Shown here: positions 46,218-54,472 of the stretch, piece by piece
Layout: each line of letters starts with the position of its first letter
How positions within the stretch are numbered: the first letter of the stretch is position 1
Sequence record: PQ306574.1
Strand: one strand, 5' to 3'
Length of the DNA stretch: 64,000 bases
From: Escherichia phage vB_EcoM_PTE-Eco09
Notes under the pieces: generated by a model
The model's database searches: none
The model's input: only the letters and a program-made list of their open reading frames with translations
Told to the model about the DNA's origin: nothing
Program-made: the position numbers and the translations under genes

Positions 46218-46898
46218 ATGATCAGAAACCGTCTTCCTCCAGATCCAGATATGCGAATTAATGCTAAATCTGTGTATATGTTATATTGCATGATGAAAGC
46301 TCATATGAACGGGCGTTATGATTGCGTAAAATACAATTGGAGGATGCGGTTGTCTGATGCCGCATTCAATAAACGCAGAGATAAGTATTATTTCGCAAAA
46401 TTAGCGGAAAAGTACAATCTAAGAGAATTATACTTCCTATTCCTAAGCAATCTGGTAGCTAATACCGATGCATGGGTAGGTGAAATCACCGATGTTGACG
46501 CATACGGGTTTTACATGGAGTACATCGGTAAAATCACTGATGCGGCAACACGATTTGACGATGACATTAAAAGTCTTGTATACTTCTCAGAGAAACGCGG
46601 GGTTACTCTTAAAGAGCTAATTACATATAATCCCGCAACCGAAACTAGCGGTATCTTTAAACTACTGCAAAATCGGATTATATCGTTTGAGTCGTTTATG
46701 TTGTTAGATAGCTTTCTAAATATAATCGACGAACACGACAAGGTAGCCAAAGACTTGATTTGGCAAACTTATAGTGTTAAAATGAAGGCGTACAAGAAAC
46801 TACTTGTTATTGACGCCGCAAAAGCAAGAGCATTATTTGTTAAAGTAGTTAAAGAGTGTAAAGAAATATCTCAATTAAAAGCCGAAACAAATAGTTGA
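46218..46898 (+). CDS. 59: helicase loader gp59
   Basis: 226 aa; SVYMLYCMMKAHMNGRYDCVKYNWRMRLSDAAFNKRRDKYYF and FLSNLVAN match remembered T4 gp59. Confidence 0.9.
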   Translation: MIRNRLPPDPDMRINAKSVYMLYCMMKAHMNGRYDCVKYNWRMRLSDAAFNKRRDKYYFAKLAEKYNLRELYFLFLSNLVANTDAWVGEITDVDAYGFYMEYIGKITDAATRFDDDIKSLVYFSEKRGVTLKELITYNPATETSGIFKLLQNRIISFESFMLLDSFLNIIDEHDKVAKDLIWQTYSVKMKAYKKLLVIDAAKARALFVKVVKECKEISQLKAETNS

Positions 46899-46958
46899 CA
46901 AGTAAATTTAAATCTGTATAATAGTCTAGTAAATTAATCAAAAGAAGGAATAGTGAAT

Positions 46959-47927
46959 ATGTTTAAACGCCAAGATTCTTCCAAACTGCAAGCTCAACTG
47001 GCCGCACTGAAAGGTGGCAACGGTTTCTCCAAAGAAGATCCGAAAGAGTGGAAGATTAAGACTGATGCAGCAGGTAACGGTGAAGCCCTGATTCGCTTCC
47101 TGCCGTCTAAGACAGAAGACGGTCTGCCGATTGTGAAACTGGTAAACCATTCCTTCAAAGTTAATGGCAAATGGTATTGGGAAAACTGCTCCAGCACCCA
47201 CGGTGATTTTGATTCTTGCCCTGTGTGCAAATATATTAACGAAAAAGACTTGTACAATACCGATAAAACCGAATGGCAACTGATTAAGCGTAAAGCGTCT
47301 TACTACGCAAACATTCTGGTACTGAAAGATCCTCAAGCACCAGAAAATGAAGGTAAGGTATTCAAATTCCGCTTCGGTCAGAAAATTTATGATAAGATCG
47401 TTGCAATGGTGAACGTGAATACCGATATGGGCGAAGTTCCGGTCGATGTAACTTGTGTGTTCTCTGGTGCTAACTTCCTCCTGAAAGCTAAGAAGGTTGA
47501 TAAACACCAGAACTATGATGATTCTCGTTTCATGCAGCAATCACAGCTTCCGAAAATTGAAGACGAAGCATATCAGAAATATCTGATGGAAAACATGGTT
47601 GATCTGAGTGAGATTGTAGCGCCTAGCCAGTTTAAACCGTTCGATGAACTGGAAACCAAATTTAAGAAAACTATGGGCGTTTCTATGGTAGCTGGTGCTG
47701 CGGCTTCCAGTGCTGCGGCAGCGATTAACAGCCAGCTTGACGATTTTGACGCACAGATGAATGCATTCGATTCTGGTATGACCGCAGCTAACACTGTAGT
47801 TGGTATTAACGCAGCTAGCACGGCGTTAGATTCTTCCGCTGATGACCTGATGGCATCTCTGGACCTGGGTGGCGGTACTTCCTCCGCTTCTGATCTGGAT
47901 GATCTTGACGCTCTGTTAGGGATGTAA
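46959..47927 (+). CDS. 32: single-stranded DNA-binding protein gp32
   Basis: MFKRQ...IRFLPSK...[17 protein letters not shown]...[12 protein letters not shown]; acidic C-terminal tail; long match to remembered T4 gp32. Confidence 0.95.
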
Positions 47928-47987: not shown

Positions 47988-48015
47988 TTGACATGCTTAT
48001 GTGGTAATGTATAAT
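47988..48015 (+). promoter_or_regulatory. sigma70-like early promoter
   Basis: TTGACA-16 nt-TATAAT, then CATCGAAACAATGGAGGA leader. Confidence 0.55.
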
Positions 48016-48045
48016 GCACACATCGAAACAATGGAGGATAAAAAT

Positions 48046-49260
48046 ATGTTAGTACGTCAAGCGCATGAAATTGAATGGACTAAGGAGAAACATAATTGTA
48101 GAGCGAAAAGCCCAACAGATTTTTATGGTAAAATTTTAGAAATATGTAAAACAGAAAATTTAGTTTTTGTCGGCTTTGTTGGGGAATGGGAAGGAAACAA
48201 AACAAAAATAAAACTTATCTGCGAACATGGTCATGAATGGATATGTTCGATAGATAAATTTGTAAGTAAAGGAACAAGATGTTCTCATAAACAATGTAAA
48301 GGTAAACGAATATCTAAAAAATTGTCTATATCCGAAACGGAATACAAAACGAGAATTTTAGAAATATGTGAAACTGAAAATCTAATTTTCTTAGGTTTTG
48401 TTGGTGAATGGAAAGGGTGTGATACTAAAATTCGCATAAAATGCAAATACGGTCATGAATGGGATGTATCTATATATAGCTTCACAAAAATGAATACCAG
48501 ATGCCCTACATGCGCAGGACAGAACAGGACAAAAGACGAATACAAAACGAGAATTTTAGAAATATGTGAAACTGAAAATATAATTTTCTTAGGTTTTGTT
48601 GGTGAATGGAAAGGATGCCGCACAAAAATAAAACTTAGCTGCAAACACGGTCATGAATGGATATCTTCCATATTATGTTTTGTGTATCAAAATACTCGCT
48701 GTCCTGTATGTGTTGGTAGATTGTCTATCGACGATAGAATGATACAGATTAATCAAGTTTGCAATTCTTTAGGTTATGTAATAATTAAGATCCACGAAGA
48801 ATGGAAAAACACAGAAACTAAAATTGATGTTAAATGTTTATGTGATTATATATGGACAACAACAATACATAGAGTCATACATGGGACTACAGGTTGCAGA
48901 AAGTGTGCTACACATGGATACAATACAAAAAAATCGGGGACTCTTTATATACAGAAATTAACCAACGATGATTCCTTTGTTGGTGTGAAATTTGGAATAA
49001 CAAACAGAGACACGAATGAACGAATGAAAAACCAATCATCAAAGTCTAAATTCGACCATGAGATCTTTTATGAATTGACTTTACAAGACGGTCAAAAGAT
49101 CTTAGAATTAGAGAACAAGATCAAGAAAGCGATGAAAGGTAAAACTTCCTATATCTCAAAAGAAGATATGCCGGATGGCTGGACCGAAACAGTAGCGCCG
49201 TCTGAATTGAGCACTATCATGTATATCGTAAAAACTTTTGAAAAAGAGTTGACAGCGTAA
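48046..49260 (+). CDS. protein with three tandem zinc-ribbon repeats and a C-terminal T5orf172/GIY-YIG-like domain
   Basis: Repeats FxGFVGEW.G..TKI...C..GHEW......F......RCP.C; C-terminal GTLYIQKLTNDDSFVGVKFGITNRDTNERM. Confidence 0.55.
   Translation: MLVRQAHEIEWTKEKHNCRAKSPTDFYGKILEICKTENLVFVGFVGEWEGNKTKIKLICEHGHEWICSIDKFVSKGTRCSHKQCKGKRISKKLSISETEYKTRILEICETENLIFLGFVGEWKGCDTKIRIKCKYGHEWDVSIYSFTKMNTRCPTCAGQNRTKDEYKTRILEICETENIIFLGFVGEWKGCRTKIKLSCKHGHEWISSILCFVYQNTRCPVCVGRLSIDDRMIQINQVCNSLGYVIIKIHEEWKNTETKIDVKCLCDYIWTTTIHRVIHGTTGCRKCATHGYNTKKSGTLYIQKLTNDDSFVGVKFGITNRDTNERMKNQSSKSKFDHEIFYELTLQDGQKILELENKIKKAMKGKTSYISKEDMPDGWTETVAPSELSTIMYIVKTFEKELTA
48340..48735 (+). repeat. 198-bp tandem duplication inside the 48046-49260 CDS
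   Basis: About 78 bp from 48340 and from 48538 are identical apart from one mismatch; a more diverged third unit lies upstream near 48121. Confidence 0.75.
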
Positions 49261-50035: not shown

Positions 50036-50605
50036 ATGATTCAATGTGTATTTGCTATTGGTGACACTAAAATGTCAGATGAAAATTGGGCTTTTGGTTT
50101 TAAAGGCGGTTTACCGTGGGGGCGTCCAATTAAAAAGGACATGGAAAACTTTAAAATGCGCACTATGGGAGATGTTGATCTTGCGGCGGTTGTAATGGGA
50201 CGTAATACCTTTGAAAGTCTGCCTAAAGCACTGGAAGGTCGTCTTAATGTGGTTATTAGTACCGATGCCAGCAAGCCGACACCGAAAGCCAAAAACGGCG
50301 ACCAGCCTAATGTGTATACTGGAATTGAATTAAAGGATCTGTTAAAAGTCCTGGAGAAAACGCAAGGTTTGGTAAGTGTTATCGGTGGACCTTCCCTGAT
50401 TGAAAAAGCGGTTGACTTTGCGGATCGTATTGTGTTAACATATGTTCAACGAGCAGGAATTAATGATCCGTTCGAATATGATGTTGGTATCTCTAAGGAA
50501 ATGATTCAGGAATTATATTTTGACTTTGCAACAAAAGAAGAACATAATTACTTCCTTGATGATTACCTGATCAGCGAACAAATTTTAGAACGTAAGAAGG
50601 CGTAA
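50036..50605 (+). CDS. frd: dihydrofolate reductase
   Basis: 189 aa; GGLPWGRPIKKD, AVVMGRNTFESLP, VIGGPSLIEKA are DHFR motifs; position before td. Confidence 0.8.
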   Translation: MIQCVFAIGDTKMSDENWAFGFKGGLPWGRPIKKDMENFKMRTMGDVDLAAVVMGRNTFESLPKALEGRLNVVISTDASKPTPKAKNGDQPNVYTGIELKDLLKVLEKTQGLVSVIGGPSLIEKAVDFADRIVLTYVQRAGINDPFEYDVGISKEMIQELYFDFATKEEHNYFLDDYLISEQILERKKA

Positions 50606-50606
50606 C

Positions 50607-50699
50607 ATGAAAATTCTGACAGATTATGAGTGCAAACATTGTGGTGAATCTTTGATGTTTGCTGGTAGTCGGTGCTTACATTGCGGACGGGAACAATAA
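50607..50699 (+). CDS. tiny zinc-ribbon peptide
   Basis: 30 codons with CxxC...CxxC (YECKHCG...RCLHCG); TAATG overlaps on both sides. Confidence 0.3.
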   Translation: MKILTDYECKHCGESLMFAGSRCLHCGREQ

Positions 50700-50968
50700 T
50701 GAAAGTCGGTATTATTCAATTATGGACGGCTACCAGTGAAAACTACGCAGTAGCCGTAGATTATTACGGTTTACAATATCTCTATGATGAAGCGAGCGCA
50801 TCATGGCTTCCTGTGCAAGAAAATAGCGATATCTCAAGACCTGCTACTATATTCGACCGTGGCGTTGTCTTTATCGATATTGACGAGACAGTAGCAAAAC
50901 TGCGTAAGAAAGCAATCAACAAGAAAAAGGTGATGTGGGATGAAAGAATATTTGAAACTATTGCGTGA
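50699..50968 (+). CDS. hypothetical protein
   Basis: 89-aa ORF from ATG 50699; overlaps the td start. Confidence 0.4.
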   Translation: MKVGIIQLWTATSENYAVAVDYYGLQYLYDEASASWLPVQENSDISRPATIFDRGVVFIDIDETVAKLRKKAINKKKVMWDERIFETIA

Positions 50969-52160
50969 TGTTCTCGATAATGGCTGGCCTCGTGAAGATC
51001 GAACGGGGGTAGGTACGCTCTCTAAATTCGGCGCAGAGATGCGAATTGACTTAAGCAAGGGTTTCCCATTACTGACCACTAAAAAGATGGCTACAGCCTC
51101 TGTAATTGGCGAATTGCTATGGTTTATGGAGGGATCACTTGACCGCCGTCGCTTACAGGAAATTACACGCGGTAAGTTTGACGAAGAAGCCTTCGACATT
51201 TGGCGCGGCAACTGTCTTGATATGAAAGAAAAGAATCCTTTGCGATTCAATGGTTATAATGTCGGCAATATGTATGGTATGGCGTGGCGACGCAAACCGA
51301 TTCATCCACACGGTGAAATCAAAATTAAGCGCGTTAAGAGCAAATATACACATACATTTAAGCACCCGTGGGTAGAAGACTTTACGCCAACCAATGAAAC
51401 AGAAGACCGTTTATGTGCTATCTGGCGTGGTATGCGTTATGAAGAGTTTGATTATATTCTGGTAGCAGACCACTGGAAGACTCAATCTAATTTTGTTAAT
51501 GATGCATATTGCTTGTGGGGATTCCAGGAATGGGTAGATGATGGTTATTTCGGTTATCTGCTTGATAGTGATTATCTGGGTGGGGATATTATAGCACCGG
51601 ATACCACGATGTTTGTTAGTATGGACGTAGACACATCAAGCACTAAAGACGATGAAGAATATGTCTATCGCCCGAAGATTTGGGAAGACCAGTTACAAAA
51701 CGTGATCGAACAAATTAAAAACAATCCAACGGATCGCCGGATCATTATTGACTCATGGAACGTACAAGGAACACATAATGCTGTATTAGGTGTATGTCAT
51801 CCTTTCGTGCAATTCTACGTCAATGAAGGTAAACTGTCTTGTATGTGGTTTCAGCGAAGCGTAGACAGCTTTTTAGGCTTGCCCTTTAACGTCGCCAGCT
51901 ATGCGCTGTTAACTCACATCATAGCGAAAATGTGTGATCTTGAGGTAGGAGAACTGATTTTCTCTGGTGGAGATACTCACATTTACAAAAACCATTTTGA
52001 TCAAGTCATGGAACAGTTAAGCCGTGTTCCGTTTGATAAACCAACAATTGAGTTGCCGGAATTTAAATCTTTAGATGAGGTATTGACAAAGACTCCGAAA
52101 GACTTTAAAATTCACAACTATCAAAGCCATCCAGCGATCACCGCTCAAATGGCAGTATAA
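50940..52160 (+). CDS. td: thymidylate synthase with a large internal insertion
   Basis: TS motifs DRTGVGT, YGMAWRR, DRRIIIDSWN, LGVCHPFVQFYV, LSCMWFQRSVDSFLGLPFNVASYALLT; 406 aa with extra residues between WRR and DQL. Confidence 0.9.
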   Translation: MKEYLKLLRDVLDNGWPREDRTGVGTLSKFGAEMRIDLSKGFPLLTTKKMATASVIGELLWFMEGSLDRRRLQEITRGKFDEEAFDIWRGNCLDMKEKNPLRFNGYNVGNMYGMAWRRKPIHPHGEIKIKRVKSKYTHTFKHPWVEDFTPTNETEDRLCAIWRGMRYEEFDYILVADHWKTQSNFVNDAYCLWGFQEWVDDGYFGYLLDSDYLGGDIIAPDTTMFVSMDVDTSSTKDDEEYVYRPKIWEDQLQNVIEQIKNNPTDRRIIIDSWNVQGTHNAVLGVCHPFVQFYVNEGKLSCMWFQRSVDSFLGLPFNVASYALLTHIIAKMCDLEVGELIFSGGDTHIYKNHFDQVMEQLSRVPFDKPTIELPEFKSLDEVLTKTPKDFKIHNYQSHPAITAQMAV

Positions 52161-52165
52161 ACAAA

Positions 52166-52181
52166 GGGGGCGAAAGCCCCC
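52166..52181 (+). other. GNRA-loop hairpin after td
   Basis: GGGGGC-GAAA-GCCCCC with no U-tract; the same hairpin occurs at 39551-39566. Confidence 0.4.
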
Positions 52182-52228
52182 AATATGGAGGATAAACTTG
52201 TTCCTGCTAAAATATGAAGTGAGGTAAT

Positions 52229-54472
52229 ATGATTAAAAATGTTGTTAAGTCTTCCGGTCTGACTGTTCCGTTTGAAAAAGAAAAAGTAATGAAAATTCTG
52301 GAAGCGGCAGCCGAAGGTCATAACGTTGATCCATATGAATTGTTTGATATGGTTGAACCACTTCTGACAGAAGGTATGTCTACCAATGATATCCAGAAAG
52401 TATTGATTAAGGTCGCCGCAGATAACATCACGGTAGAAACACCCGATTATCAATATGTAGCAAGTAACCTTGCAATGTTCGCGCTTCGTAAATCAGTATA
52501 CGGTCAATTCCAACCTATTGATTTTTATAGCCATATTGAGCGTAATATTGCAACCGGAAAATATGATCGCGAAATTCTGCAAAAATATTCCCGTGAAGAA
52601 GTGGAATATCTGGAGAAATTCATCGACCATAAACTTGATTTTAAAATGACCTATGCTGGTGCGATGCAGTTAAAAGAGAAATATCTTGTTCAGGATCGCA
52701 GCACTAAGAAAATCATCGAAACACCGCAATTTGCGTATATGCTGATCGGTATGTGCTTGCATCAAGAAGAGACCGAAAATCGACTTGAACATGTGATTGA
52801 TTTTTATAATGCGGTTGCGAATAAGCAAATCTCTCTGCCTACTCCGATTATGGCAGGTGTGCGTACCCCAACACGCCAATTTAGTTCGTGTGTGGTGATT
52901 GAAAGTGATGACTCATTGCAGGGTATTAATGAAACCGCAAATGCAATCATCAAGTATATTAGCAAGCGTGCTGGTATCGGTATCAACGCTGGCATGATTC
53001 GCGCGGAAGGATCTAAGATCGGGCATGGTGAAGTTCGTCATACTGGAGTTATCCCATTCTGGAAACATTTTCAGACTGCCGTTAAGTCATGCTCACAAGG
53101 CGGTATTCGTGGCGGGGCGGCGACTCTCTATTACCCAATGTGGCATTTAGAGTTTGAAAGTCTGATTGTGTTAAAGAACAATAAGGGGGTGGAAGATAAC
53201 CGCATTCGTCATCTTGATTACGGCGTACAGATTAATAACCTGATGGTAGAGCGATTCCTTAAACGGGATTACATTACTCTGTTTAGTCCAGATGTTGCAG
53301 GTGGCTTGTTGTGGGATCTATACTTCCGAGATGAGGAAGGTTTCCGCCAGCTTTACGAAAAACTGGAAAAAGATCCGAGTGTTCGTAAAACTCGTGTTAA
53401 AGCCGAAGACCTGTTTTTAGCGGTGGCAATTGAACGTTTTAACACTGGTCGAATCTACCCAACGTTCACAGACAACATGAACAATCACGGGGCGTTTATT
53501 CGTAATGTAGCACCGATTAAACAATCTAACCTGTGTTGTGAAATTGCTCTGCCAACAAAACCGATGGGTCGTGATGATTCAGAGATCAGCCTATGCACTT
53601 TGGCAGCATATGTTTTAGGTAATTTCGATATCGAAAATATGGAAGAAGTAGAACGCATTGCTATGGTTATGGTGCGTGCACTTGACAACCTGTTAGATTA
53701 TCAGGATTATCCTGTAGAACAAGCTCTGACAGCCAAAAAACGTCGCTCTCTGGGTGTTGGTGTGACTAACTTTGCATCGTATCTAGCAGATAATTTCTTC
53801 ACATATGAAGACGCTAGCGAGTTTACGCATAAAACGTTTGAACGCTTGCAATATGCTCTGATTAAGGCTAGTGTGCGACTGGCTAAAGAGAAGGGTGCTT
53901 GCGAACTGATGCACGAAACACGCTATGGTCGCGGTGAACTTCCTATCGACTGGTACAAAAAGACAGTAGATGAACTGGTTGATCCGGTGTATGAGATGGA
54001 TTGGGAAGAACTGCGCGAAGACCTGAAAAAATATGGCATTCGTAACAGTACGCTTTCGGCGCTGATGCCCTGTGAGTCATCTTCTCAGGTGTCTAACAGC
54101 ACAAACGGTATTGAACCGCCTCGCGGGATTGTATCGGTTAAAGGATCGAAAGAAGGGCAATTTAATCAGGTTATTCCGAACGTAGAGAATAATGCTGATG
54201 TTATTGACCTGCTTTGGACACTGATCAAGAAAGGTAACAAGCCCTATCTGACACTGGCAGCGATCATGCAGAAGTTTGTAGATCAGGCGATTAGTTCCAA
54301 TACATCCTATGATCCAAGCACTTATAAGACTGGTAAAGTCGATATTGCTGATGTGTTAGATGATATGTTGTTCGCTCAACATTACGGTCTGAAAACCCTG
54401 TATTATGCGAACGTTCGCGACGGTGCAGATGGTACGGAAGACGCTAGCGAGTGCTCATCTTGCAAGCTGTAA
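52229..54472 (+). CDS. nrdA: ribonucleotide reductase large subunit NrdA
   Basis: 747 aa; N-terminal ATP-cone, class I RNR core; C-terminal CSSCKL-type tail. Confidence 0.9.
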   Translation: MIKNVVKSSGLTVPFEKEKVMKILEAAAEGHNVDPYELFDMVEPLLTEGMSTNDIQKVLIKVAADNITVETPDYQYVASNLAMFALRKSVYGQFQPIDFYSHIERNIATGKYDREILQKYSREEVEYLEKFIDHKLDFKMTYAGAMQLKEKYLVQDRSTKKIIETPQFAYMLIGMCLHQEETENRLEHVIDFYNAVANKQISLPTPIMAGVRTPTRQFSSCVVIESDDSLQGINETANAIIKYISKRAGIGINAGMIRAEGSKIGHGEVRHTGVIPFWKHFQTAVKSCSQGGIRGGAATLYYPMWHLEFESLIVLKNNKGVEDNRIRHLDYGVQINNLMVERFLKRDYITLFSPDVAGGLLWDLYFRDEEGFRQLYEKLEKDPSVRKTRVKAEDLFLAVAIERFNTGRIYPTFTDNMNNHGAFIRNVAPIKQSNLCCEIALPTKPMGRDDSEISLCTLAAYVLGNFDIENMEEVERIAMVMVRALDNLLDYQDYPVEQALTAKKRRSLGVGVTNFASYLADNFFTYEDASEFTHKTFERLQYALIKASVRLAKEKGACELMHETRYGRGELPIDWYKKTVDELVDPVYEMDWEELREDLKKYGIRNSTLSALMPCESSSQVSNSTNGIEPPRGIVSVKGSKEGQFNQVIPNVENNADVIDLLWTLIKKGNKPYLTLAAIMQKFVDQAISSNTSYDPSTYKTGKVDIADVLDDMLFAQHYGLKTLYYANVRDGADGTEDASECSSCKL

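What the first reader, a model, noticed from the sequence alone, without database searches (positions are those of the whole stretch)
51295..51660. Thymidylate synthase carries an insertion of roughly 115 aa in the small-domain region
All TS catalytic motifs are present, but between YGMAWRR and DQLQNVIEQIKNNPTDRR there are about 120 residues where E. coli ThyA has about 10, giving 406 aa. The insert lacks intein boundary residues and the gene has no intron (unlike T4 td), so it looks like an in-frame domain insertion.
Basis: partly seen in the sequence, partly recalled or inferred. Interest (0 to 1): 0.4.

Follow-up and report, generated by a model that had tools for sequence, protein, structure and literature searches.

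The report
Decayed homing-endonuclease domain inside thymidylate synthase
The thymidylate synthase of this RB49-like phage carries a folded 131-residue extra domain, the worn-down remnant of a homing-endonuclease-like element that sits in frame in a surface loop of the enzyme with no intron or intein to remove it.

Summary
The td ORF (50940-52160, 406 aa) is a complete ThyA-type thymidylate synthase. One contiguous block of 131 residues (aa 119-249, nt 51294-51686) lies between YGMAWRR and DQLQ, where E. coli has 10 residues and T4 has 5. It is not an intron or an intein, and it is translated (dN/dS about 0.15). AlphaFold models it as a compact domain.

The origin is new. The same loop in many other phage TS genes holds a 244-283 aa module, and that module also exists as small free-standing phage genes that PHROGs labels HNH endonuclease. 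A profile built only from free-standing proteins hits the window insert (E=1.3e-9; hhalign 98.4%). Syntenic contigs supply a filled and an empty site. A second insertion site exists in an Enterococcus phage TS.

The Krischvirus copy has lost both flanking subdomains, every signature residue and its positive charge. It is therefore most likely a fixed, inactivated relic that persists because it cannot be deleted cleanly. Nuclease activity and homing of the parent module are inferred, not shown. I found no paper describing this. I rate it a new variant of a known kind, with interest about 0.6.

The parts
50940..52160 (+). td gene: ThyA-type thymidylate synthase, 406 aa plus stop, carrying the insert
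   Evidence: ORF. PF00303 283.8 bits, TIGR03284 283.4 bits against a cut-off of 108. AF2 pLDDT 92.4; TS core TM 0.93 to E. coli TS. 97-98% DNA identity to RB49-like Krischvirus td.
50940..51293 (+). TS core, N-terminal part (aa 1-118), ending in YGMAWRR (aa 112-118)
   Evidence: Aligns to E. coli ThyA 1-82 and beyond. Motif coordinates.
51294..51686 (+). The insert: 131 aa (aa 119-249), a degenerate homing-endonuclease-like module
   Evidence: Boundaries. Homology to long TS-embedded modules: tblastn E=2e-12. Homology to free-standing proteins: HMM E=1.3e-9, hhalign 98.4%. Modelled on its own with pLDDT 91. dN/dS 0.11-0.17. pI 4.75.
51294..51341 (+). Entry strand of the insert (KPIHPHGE-IKIKRVKS, aa 119-134). 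The P-x-P-H-G part corresponds to the native TS loop PTPDG.
   Evidence: Strand 118-130 in the model. Conserved KPxxPHG in all insert-bearing TS.
51399..51455 (+). Helix 1 of the module core (TEDRLCAIWRGMRYEEFDY, aa 154-172). It keeps the family W and M, but the R-C pair and the NPxxxxxxY loop are lost. A 4-aa indel polymorphism lies here within the genus (RB49 has EFDSEYNLF).
   Evidence: Helix 153-171. Column comparison. 393-nt and 405-nt versions of the insert.
51471..51548 (+). Helices 2-3 of the module core (HWKTQSNFVNDAY-CLWGFQEWVDDGY, aa 178-203). This is the best conserved part of the family (W, F, D, LxGF/YxxW).
   Evidence: Invariant W/F/D columns in A2 and A3. Alignment to the free-standing profile.
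51555..51617 (+). Vestigial beta-hairpin (YLLDSD … GGDIIAPDTTMFV, aa 206-226). The family signature LDKD…YSxxTCxF is degraded to LDSD…IAxxTTxF.
   Evidence: Strands 206-209 and 224-227. K152, Y160, S161 and C165 are lost in all 7 short inserts but kept in 74-96% of long ones.
51618..51659 (+). Acidic linker (SMDVDTSSTKDDEE, aa 227-240). It replaces the conserved Asn helix and the NUMOD-like tail of about 70 aa found in the long modules.
   Evidence: Alignment gaps relative to the long inserts.
51660..51686 (+). Exit strand (YVYRPKIWE, aa 241-249) that returns the chain to the TS core
   Evidence: Strand 241-250. Y-V-Y/V-R-P-x-I-W/Y is conserved in almost all insert-bearing TS.
51687..52157 (+). 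TS core, C-terminal part (aa 250-406), with DQLQ, DRR, the catalytic C286-H287, QRSVD…N317 and H347/Y349
   Evidence: Aligns to E. coli ThyA 110-264 (165 bits). Invariant columns.

Best explanation
The window comes from an RB49-like T4-type phage (Krischvirus). Its td gene encodes a catalytically intact ThyA-type thymidylate synthase. A 131-residue folded domain is spliced in frame into the surface loop between YGxxWR and DQ (E. coli residues ~100-109).

This domain is a trimmed descendant of a homing-endonuclease-like module of about 245-285 aa. The full module has three parts: an N-terminal beta-rich part ending in GVGYLG, a core with the signature W..M..RC…Y..V.VC.RW.NF.NF..D…L.GY..W…LDKD…YS..TC.F…N, and a NUMOD-like helix-turn-helix tail. 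It occupies exactly the same loop in many other phage TS genes. It also exists as free-standing genes of 170-300 aa next to replication genes in more than a thousand phage genomes.

Inferred history: a mobile endonuclease-like element colonised td by inserting in frame into a permissive loop, so the host enzyme stayed functional without an intron or an intein. In the lineage leading to Krischvirus and related T4-like phages the element became fixed. It then lost both flanking subdomains, all its signature Cys/Lys/Tyr/Ser/Asn residues and its positive charge. It now persists as an inactive but well-folded appendage. Selection keeps it foldable because an imprecise deletion or a misfolding mutation would damage an essential enzyme.

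Shown: the single insert, its translation and constraint, its fold confidence, its homology to the long modules and to the free-standing genes, the loss of signature residues, and the existence of filled and empty sites.

Inferred: that the parent module is or was an active site-specific nuclease that homes into td, and that the Krischvirus copy has no function of its own.
For: - **Single insert.** One contiguous block lies at the same TS position in 18 aligned long TS proteins, with sizes 126-283 aa.
- **Long inserts match HEG-annotated families.** They hit phrog_2081 'HNH endonuclease' at E=1.7e-33, phrog_953 at 1e-25 and phrog_374 at 2e-20.
- **Free-standing relatives.** tblastn of a long insert finds 1435 phage records. 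Most of the listed hits are small genes annotated as HNH endonuclease, DNA-binding protein or hypothetical protein, for example between the primase and DNA polymerase genes.
- **Window insert to long TS inserts.** tblastn gives E=2e-12 to jumbo-phage TS and 5e-7 to a Vibrio phage TS-like protein.
- **Window insert to free-standing proteins.** An HMM built only from 41 free-standing proteins hits Td aa 171-249 at E=1.3e-9, the only hit among 648 window ORFs. hhalign of short inserts against free-standing proteins gives 98.4%, E=1e-14.
- **Abundance.** A profile search of 1.84 billion representatives gives 8383 hits. Of the top 148 new proteins, 67 are TS with the module at TS-profile position ~120-127 and 81 are free-standing or tandem.
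- **Decay.** Residues conserved in 86-99% of free-standing proteins are kept in 62-99% of 77 long TS-embedded modules but lost in all 7 short ones. The insert has pI 4.75 and net charge -11, against pI 8.2-9.3 for long inserts. Intermediate lengths exist, such as P0014 and several proteins of 448-490 aa.
- **Mobility.** P0017 (559 aa) has a TS core 84-85% identical to insert-less TS. It lies in a contig syntenic with one carrying the empty gene, and DNA homology stops at codon 122 and resumes at codon 404. Module identity and core identity correlate poorly (r=0.29), with pairs where the module is more similar than the core. A second, different insertion site occurs in Enterococcus phage 163 TS.
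- **Translation and constraint.** dN/dS of the insert is 0.11-0.17, with 21 nonsynonymous against 25 synonymous changes (binomial p=4e-6). Within the genus it is 0.2-0.4 against 0.01-0.04 for the core.
- **Enzyme intact.** AF2 gives pLDDT 92.4 and pTM 0.91, and the core has TM 0.93 to E. coli TS.
Against: - No nuclease activity has been shown for any member of the module family.
- The family has no Pfam, NCBIfam or PDB sequence match.
- The filled/empty pair is only 68-78% identical in flanking DNA. It documents gain or loss but not recent homing.
- Purifying selection on the insert (dN/dS well below 1), its high model confidence and its retention across T4-like lineages only 52-61% identical are equally compatible with an acquired function.
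Confidence: 0.72

Rival explanations
1. Exapted domain. The insert does descend from the endonuclease-like module, but in Krischvirus it has been recruited for a new job. Candidates are docking Td into the phage dNTP-synthesising or replication complex, modulating folate or dUMP access, or acting as a decoy or interaction surface.
For: dN/dS of 0.11-0.17 is well below 1. The domain is compact and confidently modelled. It is retained in all 58 Krischvirus records that hold a full-length Td match and in uncultured T4-like phages whose TS is only 52-61% identical. A conserved patch, CLWGFQEWVD, is nearly invariant among the short forms.
Against: Within the genus, nonsynonymous change is 5-10 times faster in the insert than in the core, and an in-frame 4-aa indel segregates there. 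All family signature residues and the basic charge are lost. The conserved patch is the hydrophobic core shared by the whole family, so it may only reflect folding. Constraint against misfolding of an essential enzyme explains dN/dS<1 without any function. No partner or activity is known.
Confidence: 0.2
2. The parent module is not a selfish nuclease. It is a DNA- or RNA-binding domain, and TS proteins carrying it are functional fusions, for example for autoregulation or tethering to DNA. On this view the Krischvirus insert is a reduced form of a functional fusion, not a dead mobile element.
For: The module has no canonical HNH His (it has LDKD) and no Pfam nuclease match. Some homologues are annotated 'DNA binding protein'. 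The module occurs in tandem copies and at different positions in larger proteins. Long TS-embedded copies keep the signature residues as well as the free-standing ones do, which implies ongoing selection.
Against: Free-standing members sit between replication genes, the usual place for homing endonuclease genes. They often carry NUMOD-type tails. All 42 tested fall in PHROG 'HNH endonuclease' families. The distribution across TS clades is patchy, with a filled/empty pair, two insertion sites and module/core incongruence, which is the pattern of a mobile element.
Confidence: 0.15
3. The insert is removed before the enzyme works, either as a cryptic intein, as a self-splicing intron that happens to be in frame, or by translational bypass.
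For: td genes of T4 and of Bacillus phages are classic intron hosts (established knowledge; PMC2988022). The position lies between two highly conserved motifs, as is typical for introns and inteins.
Against: No Rfam match at E<=10. No stop codon and codon-level purifying selection across the block. No Cys/Ser/Thr at the N-junction or His-Asn plus nucleophile at the C-junction, and no Hint domain in Pfam. The model shows the insert as a domain on a two-stranded stalk with the TS core intact around it.
Confidence: 0.01
4. Lineage-specific elaboration of the TS small domain, unrelated to mobile elements and comparable to the 50-residue insert of Lactobacillus casei TS or the eukaryotic inserts.
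For: This region of TS is known to vary in length. Human TS has a longer loop at this very site, and L. casei has 50 extra residues nearby (established knowledge; 1lca aligns with a 52-residue offset).
Against: There is significant sequence and fold similarity to free-standing phage proteins that contain no TS and to the long modules. Closely related TS cores exist with and without the module.
Confidence: 0.02

Closest known systems
Inteins that carry a homing endonuclease, including HNH-type inteins of phages
   Same: Both are an in-frame insertion of an endonuclease-type module inside a conserved nucleotide-metabolism gene, between highly conserved motifs. Both show patchy distribution, filled and empty alleles, and decay to mini forms.
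   Different: There is no Hint splicing domain and no junction nucleophiles. The insert stays in the mature protein as an extra domain, so tolerance comes from its position in a surface loop and not from protein splicing.
The T4 td group I intron with I-TevI, and I-BmoI in Bacillus thyA
   Same: The same host gene family is used by a homing endonuclease, and conserved TS-coding sequence is a plausible target.
   Different: The elements are of different types (GIY-YIG enzymes inside self-splicing RNA). By my recollection of Edgell et al. 2004 (cited in PMC2988022), their insertion site is near the active-site-coding region, not in this loop. Here no RNA structure is found and the sequence is translated.
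Free-standing phage homing endonuclease genes (seg/mob of T4; PHROG families 2081, 953, 374 and 3377, 'HNH endonuclease')
   Same: The insert is homologous to the core of these proteins. The long TS-embedded forms cover nearly the whole free-standing protein, including the N-terminal subdomain and the NUMOD-like tail.
   Different: Free-standing genes lie between host genes, or split them into two ORFs, as in Aeh1 nrdA and as seen in locus L011. Here the module has no start or stop of its own and is embedded in the host polypeptide. The Krischvirus copy has lost the family signature.
Small-domain inserts of thymidylate synthases (L. casei 50-residue insert; eukaryotic insert 2)
   Same: The same variable, solvent-exposed region of TS tolerates extra residues without loss of catalysis.
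   Different: Those inserts are short (8-50 aa) and have no known relatives outside TS. This one is an independent domain with relatives outside TS. The L. casei site (between W83 and Y94 in E. coli numbering) is the one used by the Enterococcus phage 163 module, not the window's site.
Rickettsia palindromic elements inserted in frame in protein-coding genes
   Same: Both are mobile DNA that survives inside genes because it lands in surface-exposed parts of proteins and is translated (from memory: Ogata et al. 2000).
   Different: RPEs are short, non-autonomous repeats that encode no folded domain and are scattered over many genes. Here a whole protein-coding module targets one gene family at defined sites.

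Membership tests
ThyA-type thymidylate synthase (Pfam PF00303, TIGR03284) | Profile match above the curated cut-off | tested here: met
   PF00303 283.8 bits (cut-off 24.3). TIGR03284 283.4 bits (cut-off 108.35). The match is split in two by the insert.
ThyA-type thymidylate synthase (Pfam PF00303, TIGR03284) | Catalytic Cys-His, the dUMP-phosphate arginines, Asn177, His207/Tyr209 and Glu58/Trp80/Tyr94 (E. coli numbering) | tested here: met
   C286-H287, R21, R266/R267, R306, S307, D309, N317, H347, Y349, E58, W88 and Y112 all fall in invariant columns.
ThyA-type thymidylate synthase (Pfam PF00303, TIGR03284) | TS fold | tested here: met
   AF2 model pLDDT 92.4. Foldseek to E. coli TS gives TM 0.93 normalised on the target, E=9e-29.
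ThyA-type thymidylate synthase (Pfam PF00303, TIGR03284) | dUMP to dTMP activity | not testable with these tools
   Needs an enzyme assay or thyA complementation. Core dN/dS of 0.01-0.13 argues for a working enzyme.
Intein | Cys/Ser/Thr at the first residue, and His-Asn at the end followed by Cys/Ser/Thr | tested here: not met
   The junctions are WRR|KPIH and KIWE|DQL. The same is true of the long forms (…WRY|QPSE…, …KIYI|DQL).
Intein | Hint splicing domain | tested here: not met
   No Pfam hit to any Hint or intein family at E<=10 for the short or long inserts.
Group I intron (as in T4 td) | Ribozyme core detectable by covariance model; the reading frame usually interrupted | tested here: not met
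   cmscan of 50500-52600 at E<=10 gives only two chance hits outside the insert. The ORF is uninterrupted. Codon-level selection is present.
HNH (beta-beta-alpha-metal) endonuclease | Catalytic His at the end of strand 1 and a metal-binding Asn/His in the following helix | tested here: not met
   The window has LDSD and lacks the helix with the conserved Asn. The parent family has LDKD…N, that is Lys in place of His.
HNH (beta-beta-alpha-metal) endonuclease | Match to a curated HNH profile or to a solved HNH structure | tested here: inconclusive
Free-standing phage HEG-like family (phrog_2081/953/374) | Significant sequence homology to the family core | tested here: met
   An HMM built only from free-standing proteins gives E=1.3e-9. 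hhalign gives 98.4%, E=1e-14 over 106 columns. Foldseek BFVD hits free-standing members at E=3.5e-4.
Free-standing phage HEG-like family (phrog_2081/953/374) | Family signature residues (R-C, D-K-D, Y-S, T-C, N) and full architecture (N-terminal subdomain, core, optional NUMOD tail) | tested here: not met
   All are lost or substituted in the window and in the six other short inserts. Both the N-terminal subdomain and the tail are absent.
Active homing element | Site-specific cleavage of the empty allele and super-Mendelian inheritance in crosses | not testable with these tools
   Only indirect evidence is available: a filled/empty pair, two insertion sites, and module/core incongruence.

The most novel reading that the evidence does not exclude
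The long TS-embedded modules (244-283 aa) may be active homing endonucleases that need neither an intron nor an intein. They would be translated as an internal domain of thymidylate synthase, cut insert-less td alleles of co-infecting phages, and spread by recombinational repair. That would be a fourth lifestyle for homing endonuclease genes, and the Krischvirus insert would be its fossil end-state. It would also make TS a natural scaffold showing where a 30-kDa domain can be inserted without loss of catalysis.
Probability: 0.4. Interest if true: 0.8.

Novelty: new variant of a known kind. Interest (0 to 1): 0.6.

Why it matters
Homing endonuclease genes are thought to persist in essential genes only by hiding in self-splicing introns or inteins, by sitting between genes, or by splitting genes in two. 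This case suggests another solution: insert in frame into a permissive surface loop and remain part of the enzyme.

The data contain a full decay series. It runs from free-standing genes, through complete modules inside TS, to intermediates and finally the stripped Krischvirus relic. That series gives a testable model for how selfish DNA turns into an ordinary-looking protein domain.

There are also practical consequences. The finding explains why RB49-type Td is 120 residues longer than T4 Td. It flags many metagenomic and phage proteins that are annotated either as 'HNH endonuclease' or as 'thymidylate synthase' but are both. It also marks a loop of a well-studied drug-target enzyme that accepts insertions of up to about 280 residues.

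Tried and rejected
- **Group I intron.** Rfam at E<=10 found nothing in or near the insert.
- **Intein.** The junction residues are wrong and there is no Hint domain.
- **Insert-only homologue search.** The word-indexed search with the insert alone returned no candidates, although a 97%-identical protein is in that database. I treat this as a limitation of the index and not as evidence.
- **The search for related loci in viral contigs.** It returned only two near-identical loci, so I collected coding sequences through GenBank phage records and the look-up of encoding contigs instead.
- **Other copies in the window.** Scanning all 648 six-frame ORFs with the module HMM found only td.
- **AFDB50 fold search.** The library was not available.
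- **Whole-protein fold search.** It returned only TS structures.
- **Literature.** Six full-text searches and readings of the T4-like genome, mobile-element and jumbo-phage papers turned up no description of a td insert. The RB49 genome paper was not held.
- **L. casei-type insert.** I rejected this equivalence because that site lies upstream of the YG motif.
Full report
**1. What is in the sequence**

The region lies in a 406-codon ORF at 50940-52160 on the + strand. Its neighbours follow the T4 order:
- gp59 at 46218-46898
- gp32 at 46953-47927
- a CapR-repeat protein at 48001-49260
- frd at 50036-50605
- td, the ORF in question
- nrdA at 52229-54472

Megablast places the window in the genus Krischvirus (RB49-like phages), at 96-98.5% identity. 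There the gene is annotated simply as thymidylate synthase.

phmmer against PDB sequences aligns aa 1-82 with E. coli ThyA 1-82. It aligns aa 250-406 with ThyA 110-264 and with T4 Td 120-286. Pfam PF00303 also matches in two pieces.

A MAFFT alignment with E. coli, T4 and homologues puts essentially all the extra length in one block. The block is aa 119-249 (nt 51294-51686), between YGMAWRR and DQLQ. E. coli has 10 residues there and T4 has 5. All catalytic residues fall in invariant columns.

**2. The insert is translated and retained**

- Rfam finds no intron.
- The junctions carry no intein residues, and no Hint domain is found.
- Codon comparisons of 12 td genes give a dN/dS of 0.11-0.17 for the insert against the 89%-identical metagenomic relative. 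That is 21 nonsynonymous against 25 synonymous changes, p=4e-6 against neutrality.
- Within the genus, dN/dS is about 0.2-0.4 for the insert and 0.01-0.04 for the TS core.
- The block is therefore read as protein and is constrained, but its amino acids change 5-10 times faster than those of the enzyme.
- An in-frame 4-aa indel segregates inside it (393-nt and 405-nt versions).
- AlphaFold2 with a 52-sequence alignment gives pLDDT 92.4 and pTM 0.91, with the insert at pLDDT 86-98.
- In the model, two long strands (118-130 and 241-250) lead out of and back into the TS core. Between them lie three helices and a beta-hairpin.
- The TS part superposes on E. coli TS with TM 0.93.
- The insert modelled alone also folds confidently (pLDDT 91).

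**3. Where the insert comes from**

A search with the whole protein found three groups of relatives:
- the Krischvirus cluster
- uncultured T4-like phages with inserts of 126-139 aa, whose TS is 52-61% identical and which keep the frd-td-nrdA synteny
- TS proteins of 517-613 aa with 244-283 aa at exactly the same position

The long inserts match PHROG families annotated 'HNH endonuclease': phrog_2081 at E=1.7e-33, phrog_953 at 1e-25 and phrog_374 at 2e-20.

tblastn of one long insert against 50,697 phage records finds 1435 records. Most of the hits listed are small independent genes. One example is a 174-aa gene between the primase and DNA polymerase genes of Vibrio phage D432. Another is a 198-aa gene next to the Pol I gene of E. 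coli phage PD06.

These free-standing proteins share a full motif series with the long inserts: …GxxxxxGK…FxxTG…VKD…P.V.GVGYLG…W..M..RC…Y..V.VC.RW.NF.NF..D…L.GY..W…LDKD…YS..TC.F…N.

Several lines tie the window's own insert to this family:
- tblastn hits the long TS inserts of jumbo phages at E=2e-12, and a Vibrio phage TS-like protein at 5e-7.
- A profile built only from 41 free-standing proteins hits Td aa 171-249 at E=1.3e-9, the only hit among all 648 six-frame ORFs of the window.
- hhalign of short inserts against free-standing proteins gives 98.4% probability, E=1e-14.
- At the fold level, BFVD's best matches to the insert model are two long TS proteins and free-standing phage proteins. 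Weaker matches (E 0.1-0.2) are labelled homing endonuclease or I-HmuI NUMOD-like.

**4. How common it is and whether it moves**

A profile of the inserts, searched with HMMER against 1.84 billion cluster representatives, gives 8383 proteins at E<=1e-3 and 2304 at E<=1e-10. Of the 148 new proteins in the top list:
- 67 are TS proteins with the module at TS-profile position about 120-127
- 81 have no TS domain; these are mostly free-standing proteins of 170-300 aa, and some carry two modules in tandem

Four observations suggest the module has moved between TS genes:
- P0017 (559 aa) has a TS core 84-85% identical to insert-less TS proteins, but at most 62% identical to any other filled TS.
- Its contig is syntenic with one that carries the empty gene. 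DNA homology stops at codon 122 and resumes at codon 404.
- Across 67 filled TS proteins, module identity and core identity correlate poorly (r=0.29). In some pairs the module is more similar than the core, for example 53% against 34%.
- Enterococcus phage 163 carries the same kind of module, complete with a helix-turn-helix tail, at a different point of the small domain. That point lies between W83 and Y94 in E. coli numbering.

**5. State of the Krischvirus copy**

| Feature | Free-standing proteins | Long TS-embedded modules (77) | Short inserts (7, including the window) |
|---|---|---|---|
| Signature residues R106, C107, D151, K152, D153, Y160, S161, C165, N173 | 88-99% conserved | 74-99% kept | R106, C107, K152, Y160, S161, C165 lost in all 7; D151, D153, N173 kept in only 3-4 |
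| N-terminal subdomain | present | present | absent |
| Asn helix and NUMOD-like tail | Asn present; NUMOD tail detected in 8 of 42 | present | absent |
| Whole-insert pI and net charge | not computed | pI 8.2-9.3, net +2 to +13 (10 computed) | window: pI 4.75, net -11 |

Intermediate lengths also exist, such as P0014 at 162 aa and several TS proteins of 448-490 aa that lack only the N-terminal part.

The simplest reading is a decay series. The window's insert sits at the inactive end of it. What remains is the hydrophobic core of the domain: W162, M165, W179, F185, D188 and LWGFQEW.

**6. Mechanism proposed**

*Shown:* the insert is a retained, translated, folded relic that is homologous to a homing-endonuclease-like module.

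*Inferred:*
- The parent module is or was a site-specific nuclease that spreads into insert-less td alleles.
- In-frame placement in a loop already known to vary in TS (eukaryotic insert 2 lies at the same spot; established knowledge) makes splicing unnecessary.
- After fixation the nuclease and its DNA-binding parts decayed.
- The remaining domain is kept foldable because td is essential to a phage with unmodified DNA, and only a precise in-frame deletion could remove the domain safely.

The main rival is exaptation to a new role. It fits the purifying selection and the long retention, and I give it about 0.2.

It also remains possible that the parent module only binds nucleic acid. The family has Lys where HNH enzymes have the catalytic His. 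It has no Pfam, NCBIfam or PDB sequence relative. Its nuclease label rests on PHROG names, on sub-threshold NUMOD tails in 8 of 42 members, on gene position, and on the weak PacI similarity.

**7. Comparison with what is known, and novelty**

The host protein is a member of the ThyA family by every sequence and fold test. The insert is not an intein, not an intron and not the L. casei-type insert. It is homologous to the PHROG 'HNH endonuclease' families but fails their signature.

The closest concepts are HNH-bearing inteins, the td intron with I-TevI, and free-standing or gene-splitting homing endonuclease genes. The difference here is that nothing removes the element from the RNA or the protein.

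Full-text searches and the T4-like genome, mobile-element and jumbo-phage papers I could read do not mention it. I cannot exclude a description in literature that is not held.

I rate it a new variant of a known kind. For the window's own decayed copy the interest is moderate to high (0.6). The wider phenomenon deserves more if homing is demonstrated.

Noticed in passing
window 48001-49260 (+): A 419-aa ORF between gene 32 and frd has four CapR-homology repeats (PF21817, E=2.7e-31) and a DUF4379 treble-clef zinc finger. The related contigs L008 and L009 carry variants of 340 and 405 aa at the same place. It looks like a free-standing homing-endonuclease-type or domesticated DNA-binding gene.
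   Followed up: partly
L011 4689-7876: In an uncultured T4-like phage with a short-insert td, nrdA is split into two ORFs (476 and 324 aa) by a 237-aa gene with a faint I-HmuI NUMOD-like hit. This is a 'gene in pieces' like Aeh1 nrdA.
   Followed up: no
L006 2138-3571 (Vibrio phage D181) and L003 3647-5200 (Klebsiella phage phiKp_21): TS-family proteins that carry the full module are annotated 'HNH endonuclease' and 'hypothetical protein' respectively. The D181 protein is a divergent TS relative that lacks the DRTG motif, so its substrate may differ.
   Followed up: partly
L007 2090-3565 (Enterococcus phage 163): A TS-family protein of 491 aa has the module plus a helix-turn-helix tail inserted at a second site, upstream of the YG motif. 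This is the site of the L. casei small-domain insert. Its active-site motif reads PCVW where PCH is usual.
   Followed up: partly
P0142, P0144, P0219, P0232, P0249, P0255 (metagenomic TS): Several module-bearing TS proteins have a second extra segment of about 20-70 aa in the hairpin between FQFYV and LSCQLYQRS, just after the catalytic Cys.
   Followed up: no
P0130, P0131, P0143, P0145 and others: Non-TS proteins of 330-724 aa contain two copies of the module in tandem (one has a weak third partial match), and no Pfam domain is detected.
   Followed up: no
window 50672-50968 (+): A 98-aa ORF with a GTG start (89 aa in RB49, ORF236c) overlaps the start of td by 29 nt, has no Pfam match and is conserved in Krischvirus records.
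   Followed up: no
window 51786-51806 (td aa 283-289): The TS proteins with the insert at this loop that I examined, except P0017, read LG(V/I/M/A)CH around the catalytic Cys where the usual sequence is LPPCH. The recently filled P0017 keeps LPPCH.
   Followed up: no
L008 4001-5221 (P0002): This td is identical to the window's over the first ~155 aa but much more diverged downstream. That suggests a recombination mosaic with a breakpoint inside the insert.
   Followed up: no
tool behaviour: The word-indexed homologue search found no candidate for the 131-aa insert alone, although a 97%-identical protein (P0001) is in the same database.
   Followed up: no
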